From the IMG/VR virus record IMGVR_UViG_3300045988_157791: a DNA stretch of 64,000 nt. One strand, written 5' to 3'. This document shows positions 1 to 3,137 of this stretch, one piece after another. Origin of the DNA: a virus (Duplodnaviria; Heunggongvirae; Uroviricota; Caudoviricetes). Within the stretch, counting starts at the first letter, position 1. Each line of letters begins with the position of its first letter. The translations under genes were made by a program, and so were the position numbers. The notes under the pieces are model-generated. The model was not told the DNA's origin and did not search any database. It was given only the letters and a program-made list of their open reading frames with translations.

Positions 1-54
1 ACCGCTGACATCCTGCTTACAAGGCAGGCGCTCTACCAACTGAGCTAAACCGGC
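1..54 (-). tRNA. tRNA-Thr (anticodon UGU), 3' part cut by window edge
   Basis: Reverse complement reads GCCGGTT-TA-GCTC-AGTTGGTA-GAGC-G-CCTGC-CTTGTAA-GCAGG...; anticodon loop gives UGU. Differs from the host thr tRNA I recall, so probably phage-encoded. Confidence 0.75.
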
Positions 55-58
55 AATT

Positions 59-145
59 TGGTGGGGAGTGATGGAGTCGAACCACCCGAGTCGCAATGAC
101 AGTAGATTTACAGTCTACCCCGCTGCCCCTACGGACTAACTCCCC
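59..145 (-). tRNA. tRNA-Tyr (anticodon GUA), class II with long variable arm
   Basis: Reverse complement GGGGAGT...GTAGA-CTGTAAA-TCTAC...GGTGG-TTCGACT-CCATC-ACTCCCC-A-CCA; anticodon stem-loop, T-arm and acceptor stem pair correctly. Confidence 0.75.
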
Positions 146-150
146 TAAAT

Positions 151-225
151 TGGCGATGGTGGGTGGATTCGAACCACCGACCAGTTGGTTAACAGCCAAC
201 TGCTCTACCGCTGAGCTACACCATC
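151..225 (-). tRNA. tRNA-Asn (anticodon GUU)
   Basis: Reverse complement GATGGTG-TA-GCTC-AGCGGTA-GAGC-A-GTTGG-CTGTTAA-CCAAC-TGGTC-GGTGG-TTCGAAT-CCACC-CACCATC-G-CCA; complete cloverleaf. Confidence 0.85.
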
Positions 226-1003
226 AATTCAGCACTGCCAGTATTTATTACTCAACAGTGCCAATCGCGACGGTTTAGTTTCTGCCAGGAAACGCACCGC
301 TACTTGCACTTTTCGTTAGTGCCAGACGCTTTCGACTTCGCTCAATAGTAGAAGGCAAAATCTTTAAGTAGATGATGTTTCTGAGGACAGCACCTACTTT
401 GTAATTTATACAATGTGATGTATGGAATCATTTGTTGTGAAAACAGGCACCAATGGCAACAGTGGTTAAACCTACACAACAATCCTGTCTTCACAACGTT
501 GAGGCCACTACTCCGATTGAATGTTTGCCCAACATGTTACATATCAACGCTCGCCGGTATCTCTGTGAATAGAACCTTAGAATTGATAAAAATGTAATGG
601 CCTCAACGTTGTGTGCTGGCTAACCATACCAGCCGGGCTACGTCGCCGCCTTTTAACCCAGTATAAACGACATAATTGAACAAAATGACGTAACAGGATG
701 GGCGGTCAGTGGCTAAGAATCCGGGAGTCATATGGAGTTGAAAATATACCAACCGCCCATTCTGTTACTTCATCGGAGGGAACATGAATGTTCCCTCCTG
801 CGTTCTGCAATCACACTCGCTCAGTGTGTCCCATTTCGGTAACGAGGCTGGAAACTGACCTCGCTGGTGTTTGGCTTATTAGGCTACTGCCAGATAGACT
901 TCTTCGTTTGCACTTGTATTTAAGTTCAAACAGTCGCGTCTCAACGAAAACAAAGTCATCTTATACATAAAAGATAAGTAAGTAAATACTTATCATTGTA
1001 TTT

Positions 1004-1294
1004 TTATTCGGTTGTGACTTTTTTGATCAAGGCCACTCTACGACTAGGTGTTCTTGTGATGGTGGCAGTGAATCGTTTCGCTTGGATAGTAATGGTTTCG
1101 TTCTCCTTAAGTTGCCCGTAGCGAGTTTCCACCAGGGTGCCAAGACGCCACAGACCATCATCGATACGTTTATGACTAGCAAATTTAATCAGCAACAGTT
1201 TTACGACTAACTGACCTACGTAAAAGGCGAATGCGACTCCGGCCGCTAAGAAATAGGTGGCCAACCACCATTCCCAAGAAGTTAAATTGCTCAT
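1004..1294 (-). CDS. hypothetical small membrane protein (96 aa)
   Basis: ORF with N-terminal hydrophobic helix (WWLATYFLAAGVAFAFYVGQLVV); AAGGTG ribosome-binding site upstream of ATG. Confidence 0.5.
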   Translation of the reverse strand: MSNLTSWEWWLATYFLAAGVAFAFYVGQLVVKLLLIKFASHKRIDDGLWRLGTLVETRYGQLKENETITIQAKRFTATITRTPSRRVALIKKVTTE

Positions 1295-1655: not shown

Positions 1656-1818
1656 CCTTAATCTCCTTCAGGGTGTTGGTTATTTCTACAATGCGATAAA
1701 TACGACCGCGTCTTTCTATAACACCGCTTTTAATGTAGTCATTGATGCAACTGGACATCACCACAATACCTATGAAAAAACCAACTGCTAAAAATGCAAT
1801 CATCCAGCCGAGCATCAT
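1639..1818 (-). CDS. unlisted 59-aa membrane protein, translationally coupled to ligase
   Basis: Hand translation gives MMLGWMIAFLAVGFFIGIVVMSSCINDYIKSGVIERRGRIYRIVEITNTLKEIKDDRIK; its ATG overlaps the ligase TGA (ATGA) and its stop overlaps the next start. Below the 60-aa cutoff of the ORF track. Confidence 0.4.
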   Translation of the reverse strand: MMLGWMIAFLAVGFFIGIVVMSSCINDYIKSGVIERRGRIYRIVEITNTLKEIKDDRIK

Positions 1819-3137
1819 TCTTTATCTCCGATTCGATCTTCTGTATCGCGTAAGCAACGCGGCCATTTCAGTCGTGGGTGGCGTAAGCTGCCGTCCGGTG
1901 TTTTCTCGTGACAATGAACCTCGACAATACGACCACGGTACTTCTCTTTGTTGTTCCAGATCTCATCCAGATATTTATGCTTAATGCCGCTCGCACGAAC
2001 GATGACGCCGTTTTCAAGACGAATAACAATTTTTCCAAGTGTGTTGGCAAAACCAGAGTCCGGGTCGCCCGGCTCAAAGTCGATAATTTCACCATCTTCT
2101 GAATCTTCGTCTTTTAACTTCCACCAGCTGCGGGTACGTTTAAACTCGTAAACAGAGTTCGGATCTTTGCCCATCTCCCCTTCTTCGTTATCGTCCAGGC
2201 GTTTCATGAAGCGTTCGATGAAGTCTTCGTGGCTATGGATGATATAGAACGGATGCAGGTGAATGTCTTGTGTGTAGCCTTCACTGCGATCGTTTTTGAA
2301 CAACGCCACGAGAATAGCCAGGCGCTCTTTCAGCTTCATACCTGTCTTTGCATATTCTTTGGATTTAGCCTGTGCCCGCCATTCCGGTAGGAAGAAGTCG
2401 AAAACATGATAAATAGCGCCAATTGCCTGCACGTTCTTTTTGCGCAATGCAGATACGGACTGGTTAAATGAACCGGCTGTTCCTTCACCATCGAAGAAGA
2501 TGTGTTTGTGGCCTGAAAGTTTGCCTAATTCGAGCATGGCTGGCTTTAGGTGATCGAGAGACGTGATTGGATTACCAGTACGAGAAAGGAAGTTCACCTC
2601 TTCCTCGTCAACAATAACCTCACAAATTACTCGCAAACCATCGAGCTTAAGGCTGCCAATCATCGGCCATTTGGCTTTAGGATTTGGCTTGAAGGGGTAT
2701 TTGTCGCCTTTTTCTTTATACGGTGACGCCAGCTGCACCTCAAATTTCGGAATGGGATTTTCAAAAACCTTGTTGCATAGGCTAATCCCAACGCCAGCTT
2801 TCGGATCTTTTAAGAGGAAACGACGGAACACGTCCTGCCCATCGGCGCACATTGACGCCACGATAGACTCAACAGCAGCTATTGCTGCGTTCCCCGTCAG
2901 CTCGCGAGAGGCCAGCTTATTCAGTATATCAATGGCTTTTTCGTCACTTGGGACGGACTCACTAAGCGGCTCTGCCACTTTGTATTTCTTTACCCCAAAA
3001 CGGATGAAAGGGTTGAGCATCAATGAAACCATGCTTTGCTCGAAGTCATCCATGTTGGCCAATGCCTCTTTTTTTGCATTGGTTCCCATAGCTTTCATTT
3101 CGTCCAGCTTATGCTTAAGTGCGATCAACTTTTTCAT
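1815..3137 (-). CDS. ATP-dependent DNA ligase
   Basis: Adenylation motif I KxDGxR present as SLKLDGLRVI; 440 aa, size typical of phage ATP-dependent ligases. Confidence 0.75.
   Translation of the reverse strand: MKKLIALKHKLDEMKAMGTNAKKEALANMDDFEQSMVSLMLNPFIRFGVKKYKVAEPLSESVPSDEKAIDILNKLASRELTGNAAIAAVESIVASMCADGQDVFRRFLLKDPKAGVGISLCNKVFENPIPKFEVQLASPYKEKGDKYPFKPNPKAKWPMIGSLKLDGLRVICEVIVDEEEVNFLSRTGNPITSLDHLKPAMLELGKLSGHKHIFFDGEGTAGSFNQSVSALRKKNVQAIGAIYHVFDFFLPEWRAQAKSKEYAKTGMKLKERLAILVALFKNDRSEGYTQDIHLHPFYIIHSHEDFIERFMKRLDDNEEGEMGKDPNSVYEFKRTRSWWKLKDEDSEDGEIIDFEPGDPDSGFANTLGKIVIRLENGVIVRASGIKHKYLDEIWNNKEKYRGRIVEVHCHEKTPDGSLRHPRLKWPRCLRDTEDRIGDKE

What the first reader, a model, noticed from the sequence alone, without database searches (positions are those of the whole stretch)
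1..1000. Phage tRNA cluster with a structured 750-bp non-coding leader
Three tightly spaced tRNAs (Asn-GUU, Tyr-GUA, Thr-UGU, 4-5 nt spacers) whose sequences differ from the host tRNAs I recall continue beyond the window edge. Upstream is about 750 bp without credible ORFs but with several long inverted repeats: ACAACGTTGAGGCC/GGCCTCAACGTTGT about 95 nt apart (near 487-615), ATGGGCGGT/ACCGCCCAT (near 698-760) and GGAGGGAACA-TGAA-TGTTCCCTCC (near 775-800). The leader may contain the tRNA promoter, a small RNA, or an origin/attachment site.
Basis: seen in the sequence. Interest (0 to 1): 0.45.

Follow-up and report, generated by a model that had tools for sequence, protein, structure and literature searches.

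The report
Phage RNA mimicking tmRNA's tag template
The 778-bp "leader" before this phage-plasmid's tRNA genes is a highly structured RNA that starts with a copy of the tag-coding part of bacterial tmRNA (the RNA that rescues stalled ribosomes), has no tRNA-like part, and carries an arm complementary to the host's own tmRNA, so many enterobacterial phages may be tampering with ribosome rescue in a way not described before.

Summary
tRNA-Asn (225..151), tRNA-Tyr (145..59) and a cut tRNA-Thr (54..1) follow a 778-bp stretch with no conserved ORF. The window is an SSU5-like phage-plasmid of E. coli. The tRNAs are phage-type, not host copies.

The leader folds far better than shuffles (z -6.8). All three inverted repeats are RNA helices with compensatory changes (19 double-change pairs against 5.8 in shuffles).

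The new point is the leader's 5' ~150 nt (953..803), a tmRNA-like module:
- GCA resume codon with A at -4
- 10-codon frame ANEEVYLAVA and two stops, with no start codon in most relatives and codon-type conservation
- a pseudoknot and a hairpin behind it

No tRNA-like domain was found by ARAGORN or Rfam. The module's 5' arm is complementary to host tmRNA around its resume codon. This is highly significant in P1, Felix O1-like, Vi1-like and HK620-like phages and weaker in this window.

The module occurs in 766 phage records and 350 of 5,426 complete E. coli genomes, unannotated in every listed row bar a few overlapping CDS calls.

Best reading, inferred and not shown: the RNA anneals to host tmRNA and replaces or blocks its tag template. 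No description of it was found in the literature searched.

The parts
1..54 (-). tRNA-Thr (anticodon UGU), 3' part cut by the window edge
   Evidence: Rfam tRNA model, 40.7 bits, positions 1-52 of 71. The full gene is present in relatives.
59..145 (-). tRNA-Tyr (anticodon GUA), long variable arm
   Evidence: ARAGORN and Rfam, 39.7 bits. Absent from Cyrano and pM-64-197, which have Asn-Thr-Ser.
151..225 (-). tRNA-Asn (anticodon GUU), first tRNA after the leader
   Evidence: ARAGORN and Rfam, 75.5 bits. The only host chromosome similarity is 79-85% partial matches to tRNA-Lys genes.
226..491 (-). 3' third of the leader RNA. It holds the hairpin 497..434 and the block AAUGAUUCCAUACAUC (432..417), which is nearly invariant across 11 relatives (one A/G position inside, variable first base, one terminal change). 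It also holds the conserved block GGCAC-UAACGAAAA-GUGC and a GCGG..CCGC helix just before tRNA-Asn.
   Evidence: Alignments of SSU5-like leaders. Function not resolved.
492..613 (-). Long stem I2 (CACAACGUUGAGGCCAUUAC ... GUAGUGGCCUCAACGUUGUG) enclosing an 82-nt variable insert
   Evidence: the repeat finder I2. Helices 5-7 are 95-97% paired, with 3 pairs changed on both sides. By eye, the outer ACAACGUUGAG...CUCAACGUUGUG resembles a stem in P1.
615..675 (-). Helix UUAUGUCGUU (675..666) / GGCGACGUAG (647..638), and hairpin GCUGG...CCAGC (633..615)
   Evidence: Helices 3 and 4. Helix 3 is 98% paired and rich in conserved G-U pairs. Helix 4 is 100% paired with 3 pairs changed on both sides.
685..773 (-). 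Long stem I1 (22-26 bp) with a 45-nt loop that carries a conserved CCCGG
   Evidence: the repeat finder I1. Helix 2 has 26 pairs, 98.6% paired, 9 changed on both sides.
775..798 (-). Hairpin I7 (GGAGGGAACAU / AUGUUCCCUCC). By eye it corresponds to the 11-17-bp 'cassette stem' (GGUAAGAGCAU...GUGCUCUUUCC) that follows the module in other phages and there encloses inserts of up to about 100 nt.
   Evidence: the repeat finder I7. Helix 1 has 4 of 7 pairs changed on both sides. Cross-family comparison.
812..828 (-). Second structure after the tag: hairpin CACACU-GAGCG-AGUGUG. In non-SSU5 classes its loop also pairs downstream to make a second pseudoknot.
   Evidence: Helix 3 (100% paired, 3 pairs changed on both sides). 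The pseudoknot stem is helix 4 and is absent in SSU5-like copies.
829..863 (-). H-type pseudoknot after the tag. Stem CGAGG (863..859) / CCUCG (847..843); loop UUCCA (853..849) pairs with UGGGA (833..829).
   Evidence: Helices 1 and 2. The loop-downstream pairing covaries: CCAG:CUGG, CCGA:UCGG, CCAA:UUGG, GUCG:CGAC, CUCCA:UGGAG.
876..911 (-). tmRNA-like tag reading frame: GCA AAC GAA GAA GUC UAU CUG GCA GUA GCC UAA UAA = ANEEVYLAVA**
   Evidence: Sub-threshold Rfam hits to beta_tmRNA and tmRNA_permuted centred here. 25 distinct sequences encode 15 peptides. Synonymous/non-synonymous counts are 466/402 in this frame against 40/613 and 145/435 in the other two. Most classes have no start codon.
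912..927 (-). A-rich linker before the resume codon. A at -4 (915) corresponds to A86 of E. coli tmRNA.
   Evidence: -6..-1 is ACAAGU here and AUAAAU, AUAACU or GUAAAU elsewhere; A at -4 in all 20 classes. A86 is essential and nearly invariant in tmRNA (PMC2481249).
928..951 (-). 5' arm complementary to host tmRNA. Block A, GUUUUCGUUG (951..942), pairs with ssrA 95-104. Block B, GCGACUGUUU (937..928), pairs with ssrA 82-91, which includes A86 and G90-C91 of the resume codon.
   Evidence: RNAduplex: -26.3 kcal/mol, two 10-bp helices. Arm to host is -26.3 against arm to own tag region -13.6. Not significant alone here (z -1.1). The homologous arms in other phages are (z 5.5-8.7).
958..986 (-). 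Putative sigma-70 promoter: -35 TTTACT (986..981), 17-nt spacer, -10 TAAGAT (963..958). Predicted start about 953-951.
   Evidence: Conserved in position among SSU5-like classes: TTTACT-17-TATGAT in Klebsiella types, TTTACC-17-TATAGT in L099. Felix O1-like copies have TTGACA-17-TATAGT at the same place. The window copy scores 8 of 12, below the scan's threshold.
1004..1294 (-). Upstream 96-aa ORF (hypothetical protein) that bounds the leader
   Evidence: the ORF listing. Annotated as a hypothetical protein in Cyrano, SSU5 and pJN2-26.

Best explanation
**Shown**
- The stretch 953..226 (minus strand) has the properties of one long, highly structured non-coding RNA placed ahead of the phage tRNAs.
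- Its first ~150 nt are a tmRNA-derived module. It has a tag template (resume codon GCA, A at -4, ten codons ANEEVYLAVA, two stops), then a pseudoknot and a hairpin.
- The module has no tRNA-like domain and no start codon in most relatives.
- Its 5' arm is complementary to the host's own tmRNA across A86, the resume codon and codons 2-5.

**Inferred**
1. The RNA is made from its own weak promoter as part of the tRNA precursor. RNase P cleavage at tRNA-Asn then releases it.
2. The arm anneals to host tmRNA. This masks the host tag template and, in other phage families, also opens pseudoknot 1.
3. Host Ala-tmRNA with SmpB still enters stalled ribosomes. Translation then resumes on the tethered phage template, which sits 9-16 nt past the duplex, much as the host resume codon sits 11 nt past pseudoknot 1.
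4. Rescued proteins would end in ...YLAVA instead of ...YALAA. This would probably change or remove recognition by ClpXP.

At the least, the RNA would silence host tagging. The remaining ~580 nt are conserved long-stem domains of unknown role, possibly processing or stability elements or further small RNAs.
For: - **Structure.** z -6.8. Covariation in the leader and in the module: 94% paired, 16 pairs changed on both sides against 7.7 in shuffles, 0 of 500; slid controls 2-4.
- **tmRNA likeness.** Independent weak Rfam hits to beta_tmRNA, tmRNA and tmRNA_permuted at the tag in the window, HK620 and Carvaje. A at -4 in all classes.
- **Translation-type constraint.** Synonymous/non-synonymous 466/402 in the tag frame against 40/613 and 145/435 in the others. 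An in-frame stop lies 5-16 codons upstream with no start codon in most classes, including SSU5 itself.
- **No tRNA-like domain.** ARAGORN finds no tmRNA in the window, the relatives or the rest of a related replicon. Rfam at gathering finds only tRNAs, plus a cspA thermoregulator elsewhere on the related replicon.
- **Antisense arm.** Alignment to the reverse complement of real E. coli ssrA nt 68-106 gives z 5.5-8.7. The sense strand is not significant. Duplex energies are -35 to -48 kcal/mol, z -3.3 to -6.
- **The arm follows the host.** Arm to host is about twice as stable as arm to own template in all 20 classes. The invariant GUUUUCG does not follow the phage's own codons 3-5.
- **Target conservation.** The target is nearly invariant across Enterobacterales.
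- **Spread.** 766 phage records from unrelated families, so the partner is probably a host factor.
Against: - Nothing here shows that the RNA is made, that it binds tmRNA, or that the tag is translated.
- In this window's class the arm is short (two 10-bp blocks) and not significant alone (z -1.1, p 0.14; alignment z 0.7).
- No case is known of a ribosome resuming on a template that is only base-paired to tmRNA. The tmRNA pseudoknot ring is normally continuous with the tRNA-like domain.
- A duplex of 30-40 bp could instead be an RNase III target and simply destroy both RNAs.
- The module alignment was built to fit the proposed structure, which favours it.
- One lineage (L111) has a double change that fits a nested pairing rather than the pseudoknot.
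- Y. pestis sRNA-seq did not list an sRNA at the pMT1 copy.
Confidence: 0.42

Rival explanations
1. Pure antisense inhibitor or decoy. The RNA pairs with host tmRNA, or soaks up its ligands such as SmpB or S1. This blocks tagging or triggers cleavage. The phage tag frame is never translated.
For: - Same complementarity evidence.
- Long duplexes are classic RNase III substrates (general knowledge).
- A tRNA-like-domain-only RNA is known to inhibit tmRNA, as cited in PMC4131195, so partial tmRNAs can act as inhibitors.
Against: - The tag frame shows codon-type conservation. Third-position changes (AAC/AAU, GAC/GAU, GAA/GAG, CAA/CAG, UAU/UAC, GCA/GCC/GCU, GUA/GUG, GCC/GCU/GCG) leave ...LAVA intact.
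- The stops, A at -4 and the pseudoknots are also kept.
- A pure antisense RNA needs none of these.
Confidence: 0.2
2. Coding piece of a two-piece phage tmRNA. A separate acceptor piece (tRNA-like domain), encoded elsewhere or hidden in the leader's other domains, pairs with it and makes a self-sufficient phage tmRNA.
For: - Weak full-length alignment to Rfam tmRNA_permuted.
- Some relatives carry T-arm-containing inserts inside the cassette stems (Carvaje, P1).
- HK620-like copies are followed by a domain closed by UGUGGUG...CACCACA, followed in HK620 by G-CCA.
Against: - No acceptor stem with G3:U70, T-arm and CCA in the window or in the rest of a related replicon.
- SSU5-like and Felix O1-like copies start at a promoter right at GUUUUCG, with no 5' acceptor strand.
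- The only part common to all families is the module itself.
- The arm matches host tmRNA's template region, not a helix near a tRNA-like domain.
Confidence: 0.12
3. Ordinary tRNA-operon leader. It holds a promoter, processing stems and a decaying fragment of captured ssrA with no function of its own.
For: - Position directly upstream of the tRNAs.
- Long stems resemble RNase III processing stems (inference).
- Sub-threshold Rfam scores.
Against: - The module is kept in unrelated phage families and contexts, including HK620's late leader without tRNAs and pMT1, where the tRNAs were lost.
- It shows purifying selection on structure and codons.
- The tags differ from the host tag but share ...LAVA, so they form one evolving family, not repeated captures.
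Confidence: 0.1
4. Conventional small protein gene: a 26-aa ORF from ATG 959..957 to the stop at 881..879.
For: An in-frame ATG exists in this window's class.
Against: - The ATG lies inside the predicted -10 box.
- SSU5 has an in-frame TGA five codons upstream. Most classes have stops 5-16 codons upstream and no ATG, GTG or TTG.
- No Shine-Dalgarno sequence was noticed by eye.
Confidence: 0.03
5. DNA-level element: a replication origin, attachment site or packaging site that uses the inverted repeats as cruciforms or protein-binding sites.
Against: - The helices keep many G-U pairs that are valid only in the minus-strand transcript (for example 10 of 11 and 11 of 11 G-U or U-G at several pairs).
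- Stem sequences covary instead of being conserved as binding sites.
- repA is about 22 kb away in a related replicon.
- No direct-repeat iterons.
Confidence: 0.03

Closest known systems
tmRNA (SsrA; Rfam RF00023 and clan CL00001)
   Same: - Template with a GCA resume codon and no start codon.
- A at -4 (A86).
- Ten-codon tag of the AN(D/E)... type with a hydrophobic end.
- Tandem stop codons.
- H-type pseudoknots after the template.
   Different: - No tRNA-like domain (no acceptor stem, G3:U70, T-arm or CCA).
- In place of pseudoknot 1 there is an arm antisense to the host's tmRNA.
- The tag ends in LAVA, not LAA.
- It is embedded in a phage tRNA-operon leader.
- Rfam scores are 10-22 bits against thresholds of 47-84.
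Two-piece (circularly permuted) tmRNA, coding piece (Rfam RF04321)
   Same: A tag-template RNA that cannot be aminoacylated by itself.
   Different: - No 5' acceptor strand.
- No acceptor piece found.
- The complementarity is to the template region of another, complete tmRNA.
Phage-encoded tmRNAs (mycobacteriophage Bxz1 group, Bacillus phage G) and the tRNA-like-domain-only RNA of mycobacteriophage DS6A (PMC4131195)
   Same: Phage genes that touch trans-translation. From general knowledge, not checked here, they often sit in genomes rich in tRNA genes. DS6A shows that a partial tmRNA can be kept by a phage.
   Different: - Those are complete tmRNAs or carry only the tRNA-like domain. This is the mirror image: template plus pseudoknots only.
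- The 2014 exhaustive search of RefSeq viruses and plasmids reported ssrA only in mycobacteriophages.
Trans-acting antisense small RNAs of prophages (for example DicF; general knowledge)
   Same: A phage-borne RNA with an arm complementary to a host RNA.
   Different: - The target would be a stable non-coding RNA, not an mRNA.
- The arm is fused to a replacement template.
- Up to ~40 nt of complementarity.
Large structured RNAs next to tRNA genes in phages (GOLLD, ROOL; general knowledge)
   Same: Several hundred nucleotides, many covarying helices, and a position beside phage tRNA genes.
   Different: No Rfam match at E<=10. Different architecture.

Membership tests
tmRNA (SsrA) | tRNA-like domain: acceptor stem with G3:U70, T-arm, 3' CCA | tested here: not met
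   ARAGORN reports no tmRNA in the window, 12 related loci or the rest of a related replicon. Rfam hits cover only the template.
tmRNA (SsrA) | Internal reading frame that starts at a resume codon without an initiation codon and ends in stop codon(s), conserved at the peptide level | tested here: met
   GCA...UAA UAA at 911..876. Synonymous/non-synonymous 466/402 against 40/613 and 145/435. No start codon in most classes.
tmRNA (SsrA) | Upstream frame-setting signal (A86 at -4; U or C tolerated at -5) | tested here: met
   A at -4 in all 20 classes; -5 is U or C. Requirement taken from PMC2481249.
tmRNA (SsrA) | Pseudoknots flanking the template | tested here: inconclusive
   Downstream pseudoknot(s) are supported by covariation. 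No pseudoknot 1 equivalent was found upstream; an antisense arm sits there instead.
tmRNA (SsrA) | Reaches Rfam's curated gathering score | tested here: not met
   10.3-21.7 bits against 47-84. Nothing at gathering threshold.
tmRNA (SsrA) | Alanylation, SmpB binding, tagging of stalled products | not testable with these tools
   Needs biochemistry or mass spectrometry.
Two-piece tmRNA | Separate acceptor piece in the same genome that pairs with the coding piece | tested here: not met
   None detected by ARAGORN or Rfam in the window plus the remaining 50 kb of the related replicon pM-64-197. A very divergent piece cannot be excluded.
Trans-acting antisense RNA against host tmRNA | Complementarity to the target beyond chance | tested here: met
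   z 5.5-8.7 in Felix O1-like, Carvaje-like, P1 and PhiSH19 copies (HK620 itself 3.6); the sense strand is not significant. In this window's class alone it is inconclusive: z -1.1 by energy, 0.7 by alignment.
Trans-acting antisense RNA against host tmRNA | The arm follows the host sequence rather than the element's own homologous sequence | tested here: met
   Arm to host is -23 to -47 kcal/mol against arm to own -11 to -19 in all 20 classes. The target is nearly invariant in Enterobacterales.
Trans-acting antisense RNA against host tmRNA | Expression and physical pairing in vivo | not testable with these tools
   Only a promoter conserved in position. The Y. pestis sRNA list has no entry at the pMT1 copy.
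Phage tRNA gene cluster | Canonical cloverleaf tRNAs, tightly spaced, distinct from host genes | tested here: met
GOLLD / ROOL / Y RNA (YrlA) | Match to the curated covariance model | tested here: not met
   No hit at E<=10 in 226-1010, or at E<=1 in the HK620 and Carvaje loci. A Ro/TROVE-like partner was not looked for in this window.

The most novel reading that the evidence does not exclude
Many enterobacterial phages and phage-plasmids (SSU5-like, P1, Felix O1-like, Vi1-like, HK620-like and others) encode a 'template-swap' RNA. It base-pairs with the host's tmRNA, masks the host tag template and offers its own. Ribosome rescue continues, but rescued proteins receive a phage-specified tag (...YLAVA) instead of the ClpXP degron (...YALAA). 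This would be the first case of trans-translation being reprogrammed in trans by a second RNA.
Probability: 0.3. Interest if true: 0.95.

Novelty: new variant of a known kind. Interest (0 to 1): 0.8.

Why it matters
**If the reading holds.** tmRNA is treated as a self-contained molecule, with the tRNA part and the mRNA part in one RNA or in two pieces from one gene. A widespread phage RNA with only the mRNA part and an arm against the host's tmRNA would show that viruses can retarget or silence ribosome rescue. This bears on several open questions:
- why some phages depend on host ssrA;
- how phages cope with defence systems that cut tRNAs or mRNAs and so stall ribosomes;
- what phage tRNA clusters are for.

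**Reach of the element.** It sits on plasmids of clinical interest: SSU5-like phage-plasmids, some of which carry CTX-M genes, and Y. pestis pMT1. It is also in model phages (P1, HK620) and in Felix O1-like and Vi1-like phages of the kind used for therapy. It is unannotated in almost every record sampled.

**If only the structural part holds.** It is still a new, large and well-supported RNA family absent from Rfam.

Tried and rejected
1. **Conventional ORF.** The window's in-frame ATG is specific to its class and lies in the -10 box.
2. **Known RNA families.** There are only sub-threshold tmRNA hits and nothing else.
3. **Hidden tRNA-like domain in the leader.**
   - Short sense matches to ssrA in the I1 loop (GGGCGGUUGG, UUCAACUCC) are specific to this window's class and absent in SSU5 and others. 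I treat them as chance.
   - The nearly invariant hairpin GAUGAUUCCAUACAUC is not a T-loop: it has a pyrimidine at position 57.
4. **Long-range pairing of the 5' arm** with the conserved 3' block GCGUCU...AACGAAA, seen in the MFE and centroid fold. It does not covary among relatives (by eye), so I dropped it.
5. **5' region as a sense remnant of the tmRNA 5' end.** The alignment is not significant.
6. **Arm pairing with the element's own template.** It is about half as stable as pairing with the host.
7. **Host-phage covariation of arm and target.** This was not possible because the target is nearly invariant across Enterobacterales.
8. **Expression evidence from Y. pestis sRNA-seq.** sR082 and sR083 lie elsewhere on pMT1.
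9. **Literature.** Eight searches, including the exact tag peptides, found nothing. The P1 genome paper is not held.
10. **Y-RNA idea for the cassette stems.** It arose from the DUF2828 'RNA-binding protein' next to Michonne's tRNAs. There is no Rfam support, and I did not pursue it.
Full report
**1. What the window is.** The first 1.3 kb is 98.6% identical to Escherichia phage CMS-2020a and 98.3% to phage Cyrano. It is related at ~79% to Salmonella phage SSU5 and at ~82% to Klebsiella phage-plasmids. The leader alone is 100% identical to E. coli plasmid pM-64-197 (IncFIB) and matches 773 plasmids of Escherichia, Klebsiella, Enterobacter, Yersinia (pMT1), Salmonella and others. This is an SSU5-like phage-plasmid.

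**2. Checking the observation.**
- ARAGORN and Rfam find tRNA-Asn(GUU) at 151-225, tRNA-Tyr(GUA) at 59-145 and a cut tRNA-Thr(UGU) at 1-54. All are on the minus strand, with 5- and 4-nt spacers.
- Genes to the right (96-aa ORF 1294..1004, DNA ligase 3137..1815) are also on the minus strand. So 226-1003 lies between the last upstream gene and the first tRNA.
- No ORF above 60 aa lies there. Cyrano and SSU5 annotate nothing in it. pJN2-26 has one 47-aa opposite-strand hypothetical call.
- The three inverted repeats are present.
- The tRNAs are not host copies. Only 269 of 5,426 complete E. coli genomes hold the block at full length, and the listed ones are phage-plasmid-sized records. The sampled chromosomal similarity is 79-85% over part of tRNA-Asn to tRNA-Lys genes.
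- tRNA content varies among near-identical relatives. Cyrano and pM-64-197 have Asn-Thr-Ser, this window has Asn-Tyr-Thr, and SSU5 has Asn only.

**3. The leader is a structured RNA.**
- Folded as RNA, 953..226 has an MFE of -252 kcal/mol against -198 +/- 8 for shuffles, z -6.8.
- I aligned 11 SSU5-like leaders (E. coli, Salmonella SSU5, Klebsiella pJN2-26, Cronobacter and IMG/VR contigs). I counted the RNAalifold helices on a fixed alignment.
- 97.9% of cells pair. 19 pairs change on both sides, against 5.8 in shuffles (0 of 500) and 0-4 with slid partners.
- Several pairs are conserved G-U, which work only in the minus-strand transcript. This argues for RNA and against DNA cruciforms.

**4. 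A tmRNA-like tag module at the 5' end.**
- A permissive Rfam scan gave only sub-threshold hits to tmRNA models, all centred on one spot.
- That spot reads GCA AAC GAA GAA GUC UAU CUG GCA GUA GCC UAA UAA = ANEEVYLAVA** (911..876). The E. coli tag is GCA AAC GAC GAA AAC UAC GCU UUA GCA GCU UAA UAA = ANDENYALAA**.
- A ~100-nt piece around it matches unrelated phages. With the HK620 version as query, 766 phage records match. They include Felix O1-like, Vi1-like (Ackermannviridae), HK620/HK633, Carvaje-like siphophages, ~72-kb phages, P1, and Erwinia, Serratia, Cronobacter and Vibrio phages.
- 350 of 5,426 complete E. coli genomes carry it: 141 chromosomal and 219 plasmid places. The listed rows show no feature for it, apart from a few overlapping CDS calls.
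- In most contexts examined it is next to tRNA genes: SSU5-like, P1, Felix O1-like, Carvaje and two IMG/VR types, with a tRNA ~1.3 kb away in PhiSH19. In HK620 it lies between the late promoter pR'/qut and the late terminator.

**5. Is the frame read as codons?**
- I collected copies with anchors outside the tag and with the first pattern. This gave 25 distinct sequences and 15 peptides: ANEEVYLAVA, ANEEMYLAVA, ANDNVFLAVA, ANDNQYLAVA, ANDEQFLAVA, ANEDTYLAVA (SSU5, pMT1), ANDDLMMVAA (P1) and others.
- Single-nucleotide codon differences are synonymous/non-synonymous 466/402 in the tag frame, against 40/613 and 145/435 in the other frames.
- Codons 1-2 and 7-10 vary almost only at third positions.
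- In most classes an in-frame stop lies 5-16 codons upstream with no ATG, GTG or TTG between. SSU5 has TGA five codons upstream. The window's in-frame ATG (959..957) is specific to its class and sits in the predicted -10 box.
- The base at -4 is A in all 20 classes and -5 is U or C. This matches A86 and U85 of E. coli tmRNA, where A86 is essential and U85C is tolerated (PMC2481249).
- A translated frame with no initiation signal is the hallmark of a tmRNA template.

**6. Structure behind the tag.**
- I parsed 127 copies and fixed a structural alignment of 21 distinct classes.
- Four helices were counted: 94.1% paired, 16 pairs changed on both sides against 7.7 in shuffles (0 of 500), slid controls 2-4.
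- They form an H-type pseudoknot directly after the stops. Its loop-downstream pairing covaries: CCAG:CUGG, CCGA:UCGG, CCAA:UUGG, GUCG:CGAC, UUCCA:UGGGA, CUCCA:UGGAG.
- A second hairpin follows. In non-SSU5 classes it forms a second pseudoknot. In this window it is a plain hairpin (828..812).
- Caveat: I fitted the alignment to the structure. One lineage (L111) fits a nested alternative.

**7. No tRNA-like domain.**
- ARAGORN finds no tmRNA in the window, in 12 related loci or in the remaining 50 kb of the related replicon pM-64-197.
- Rfam at gathering threshold finds only tRNAs there, plus a cspA thermoregulator elsewhere on pM-64-197.
- SSU5-like and Felix O1-like copies begin at a promoter whose predicted start is at the conserved GUUUUCG. 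That leaves no room for a 5' acceptor strand.
- An exhaustive ssrA survey of RefSeq viruses and plasmids in 2014 reported tmRNA only in mycobacteriophages. It named Bacillus phage G and DS6A (tRNA-like domain only) from outside that dataset (PMC4131195). Methods that need the tRNA-like domain would miss this element.

**8. The 5' arm is antisense to host tmRNA.**
- I fetched a real E. coli ssrA. The module's 5' arm aligns to the reverse complement of ssrA nt 68-106. That stretch holds the 3' strand of pseudoknot 1, the A-rich linker with A86, the resume codon and codons 2-6.
- z values are 5.7 and 6.5 (Felix O1-like), 5.5 (Carvaje), 8.7 (L105), 5.8 (P1) and 7.8 (PhiSH19). HK620 itself gives 3.6. 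Alignment to the sense strand is not significant.
- Duplex energies are -35 to -48 kcal/mol, z -3.3 to -6.
- In this window the arm is shorter. GUUUUCGUUG (951..942) pairs with ssrA 95-104 and GCGACUGUUU (937..928) with ssrA 82-91. That is two 10-bp helices at -26.3 kcal/mol, not significant alone (z -1.1).
- The arm is positionally homologous to the significant arms. Substitutions among SSU5-like copies are wobble-compatible with a constant target (GCGAC to GCGGC or GCGAU, by eye).
- In all 20 classes the arm pairs about twice as well with the host as with the element's own homologous region. Where host and phage templates differ (the -1 triplet GUC against AAU/AGU/ACU; codons 3-5), the arm matches the host.
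- The target is nearly invariant across a sample of 120 Enterobacterales and Pasteurellaceae genomes. This fits the element's host range but rules out a covariation test.

**9. Mechanism.**
- *Shown:* a conserved structured RNA; a tmRNA-type template under codon-level constraint; no tRNA-like domain; complementarity to host tmRNA.
- *Inferred:* the RNA is released from the tRNA precursor. It anneals to host tmRNA and covers the host's frame-setting signal and first codons. Because it is tethered where pseudoknot 1 sits and offers its own A(-4)/GCA 9-16 nt beyond the duplex, the ribosome rescued by host Ala-tmRNA and SmpB resumes on the phage template.
- The tag would then end in ...LAVA instead of ...ALAA. 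From general knowledge of ClpX and SspB recognition, not tested here, this should weaken ClpXP targeting while keeping the N-terminal AN(D/E) part.
- The more cautious version is simple silencing of host tagging.
- Speculation only: the host tag needs Asn, Asp and Tyr tRNAs, and the module is linked to phage tRNA-Asn and tRNA-Tyr. The operon might keep ribosome rescue working when defence nucleases attack such tRNAs.

**10. The rest of the leader.**
- The hairpin 798..775 corresponds, by eye, to a stem that follows the module in other phages. Its compensatory changes run GGAGGGAACAU to GGUAAGAGCAU to CUAAAGAGCAU. There it encloses variable inserts, some with T-arms.
- I1, I2 and the 3' blocks are conserved only among SSU5-like elements. 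Their role is unresolved.

**11. Novelty and verdict.**
- Eight literature searches, including the exact tag peptides, found no description. Subscription journals are mostly not covered.
- I file it as a new variant of a known kind: a tmRNA-derived RNA.
- The most novel reading not excluded is template swapping on host tmRNA, probability ~0.3.
- Interest 0.8. The structural and comparative evidence is strong and the element is very widespread. The mechanism is inferred, and in this particular window the antisense arm is the weakest of the family.

Noticed in passing
L016 about 2150-2230 (Felix O1-like IMG/VR contig), just after the module and cassette stem: An odd tRNA-like sequence, CGGGGCG...CGCCUCG-A-CCA. 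It has a G3:U70 pair, a UCU anticodon-like stem-loop, no D-arm, a long variable region and an encoded CCA. ARAGORN does not call it. Sister phages have a normal tRNA-Arg(UCU) at this position.
   Followed up: partly
L004 4276-5111 (Citrobacter phage Michonne gp140): An 'RNA-binding protein' with DUF2828 lies directly upstream of the tRNA cluster that holds the module. It suggested a Ro/Y-RNA-like link for the long-stem cassettes.
   Followed up: no
L128 2100-2440 (P1) and L006 2400-2480 (Carvaje): Long stems with shared ends (CACAAC-A-GGUAAG...CUUACC-GUUGUG-GUGAA) enclose tRNA-like inserts with a canonical T-arm (GGGUUCGAAUCCC). No tRNA is called. They look like a family of cassettes around phage tRNA genes.
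   Followed up: partly
L005 2216-2923 (HK620): The module lies between the late promoter pR'/qut and the late terminator. By analogy with lambda's short pR' transcript, it could be made constitutively, even in lysogens.
   Followed up: no
L227 889-1403 (Y. pestis pMT-1): The tag module (tag ANEDTYLAVA) and about 500 nt of leader are kept, but caf1R of the F1 capsule locus abuts the leader where the rest of it and the tRNAs lie in relatives.
   Followed up: partly
L239, L243, L260, L306, L245, L267, L333 (Yersinia, Sodalis and others): Some genomes in the ssrA sample carry a different tmRNA allele, with the resume context AAUAAUU-GCA and a longer tag (GCAAACGACUCGCAAUACGAAUCUGCUGCUUUAGC...). 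The phage arm would not match it well.
   Followed up: no
window 59-145 compared with L001 and L353: tRNA-Tyr is present in this window but absent from near-identical relatives, which have Asn-Thr-Ser instead. tRNA content turns over quickly beside a constant leader.
   Followed up: partly
L353 10728-11146 and L354 23238-25628 (related plasmid pM-64-197, outside the window): The related replicon carries a cspA-type thermoregulator with cspG, and blaCTX-M-64 next to ISEcp1. Elements of this family can carry resistance genes.
   Followed up: no
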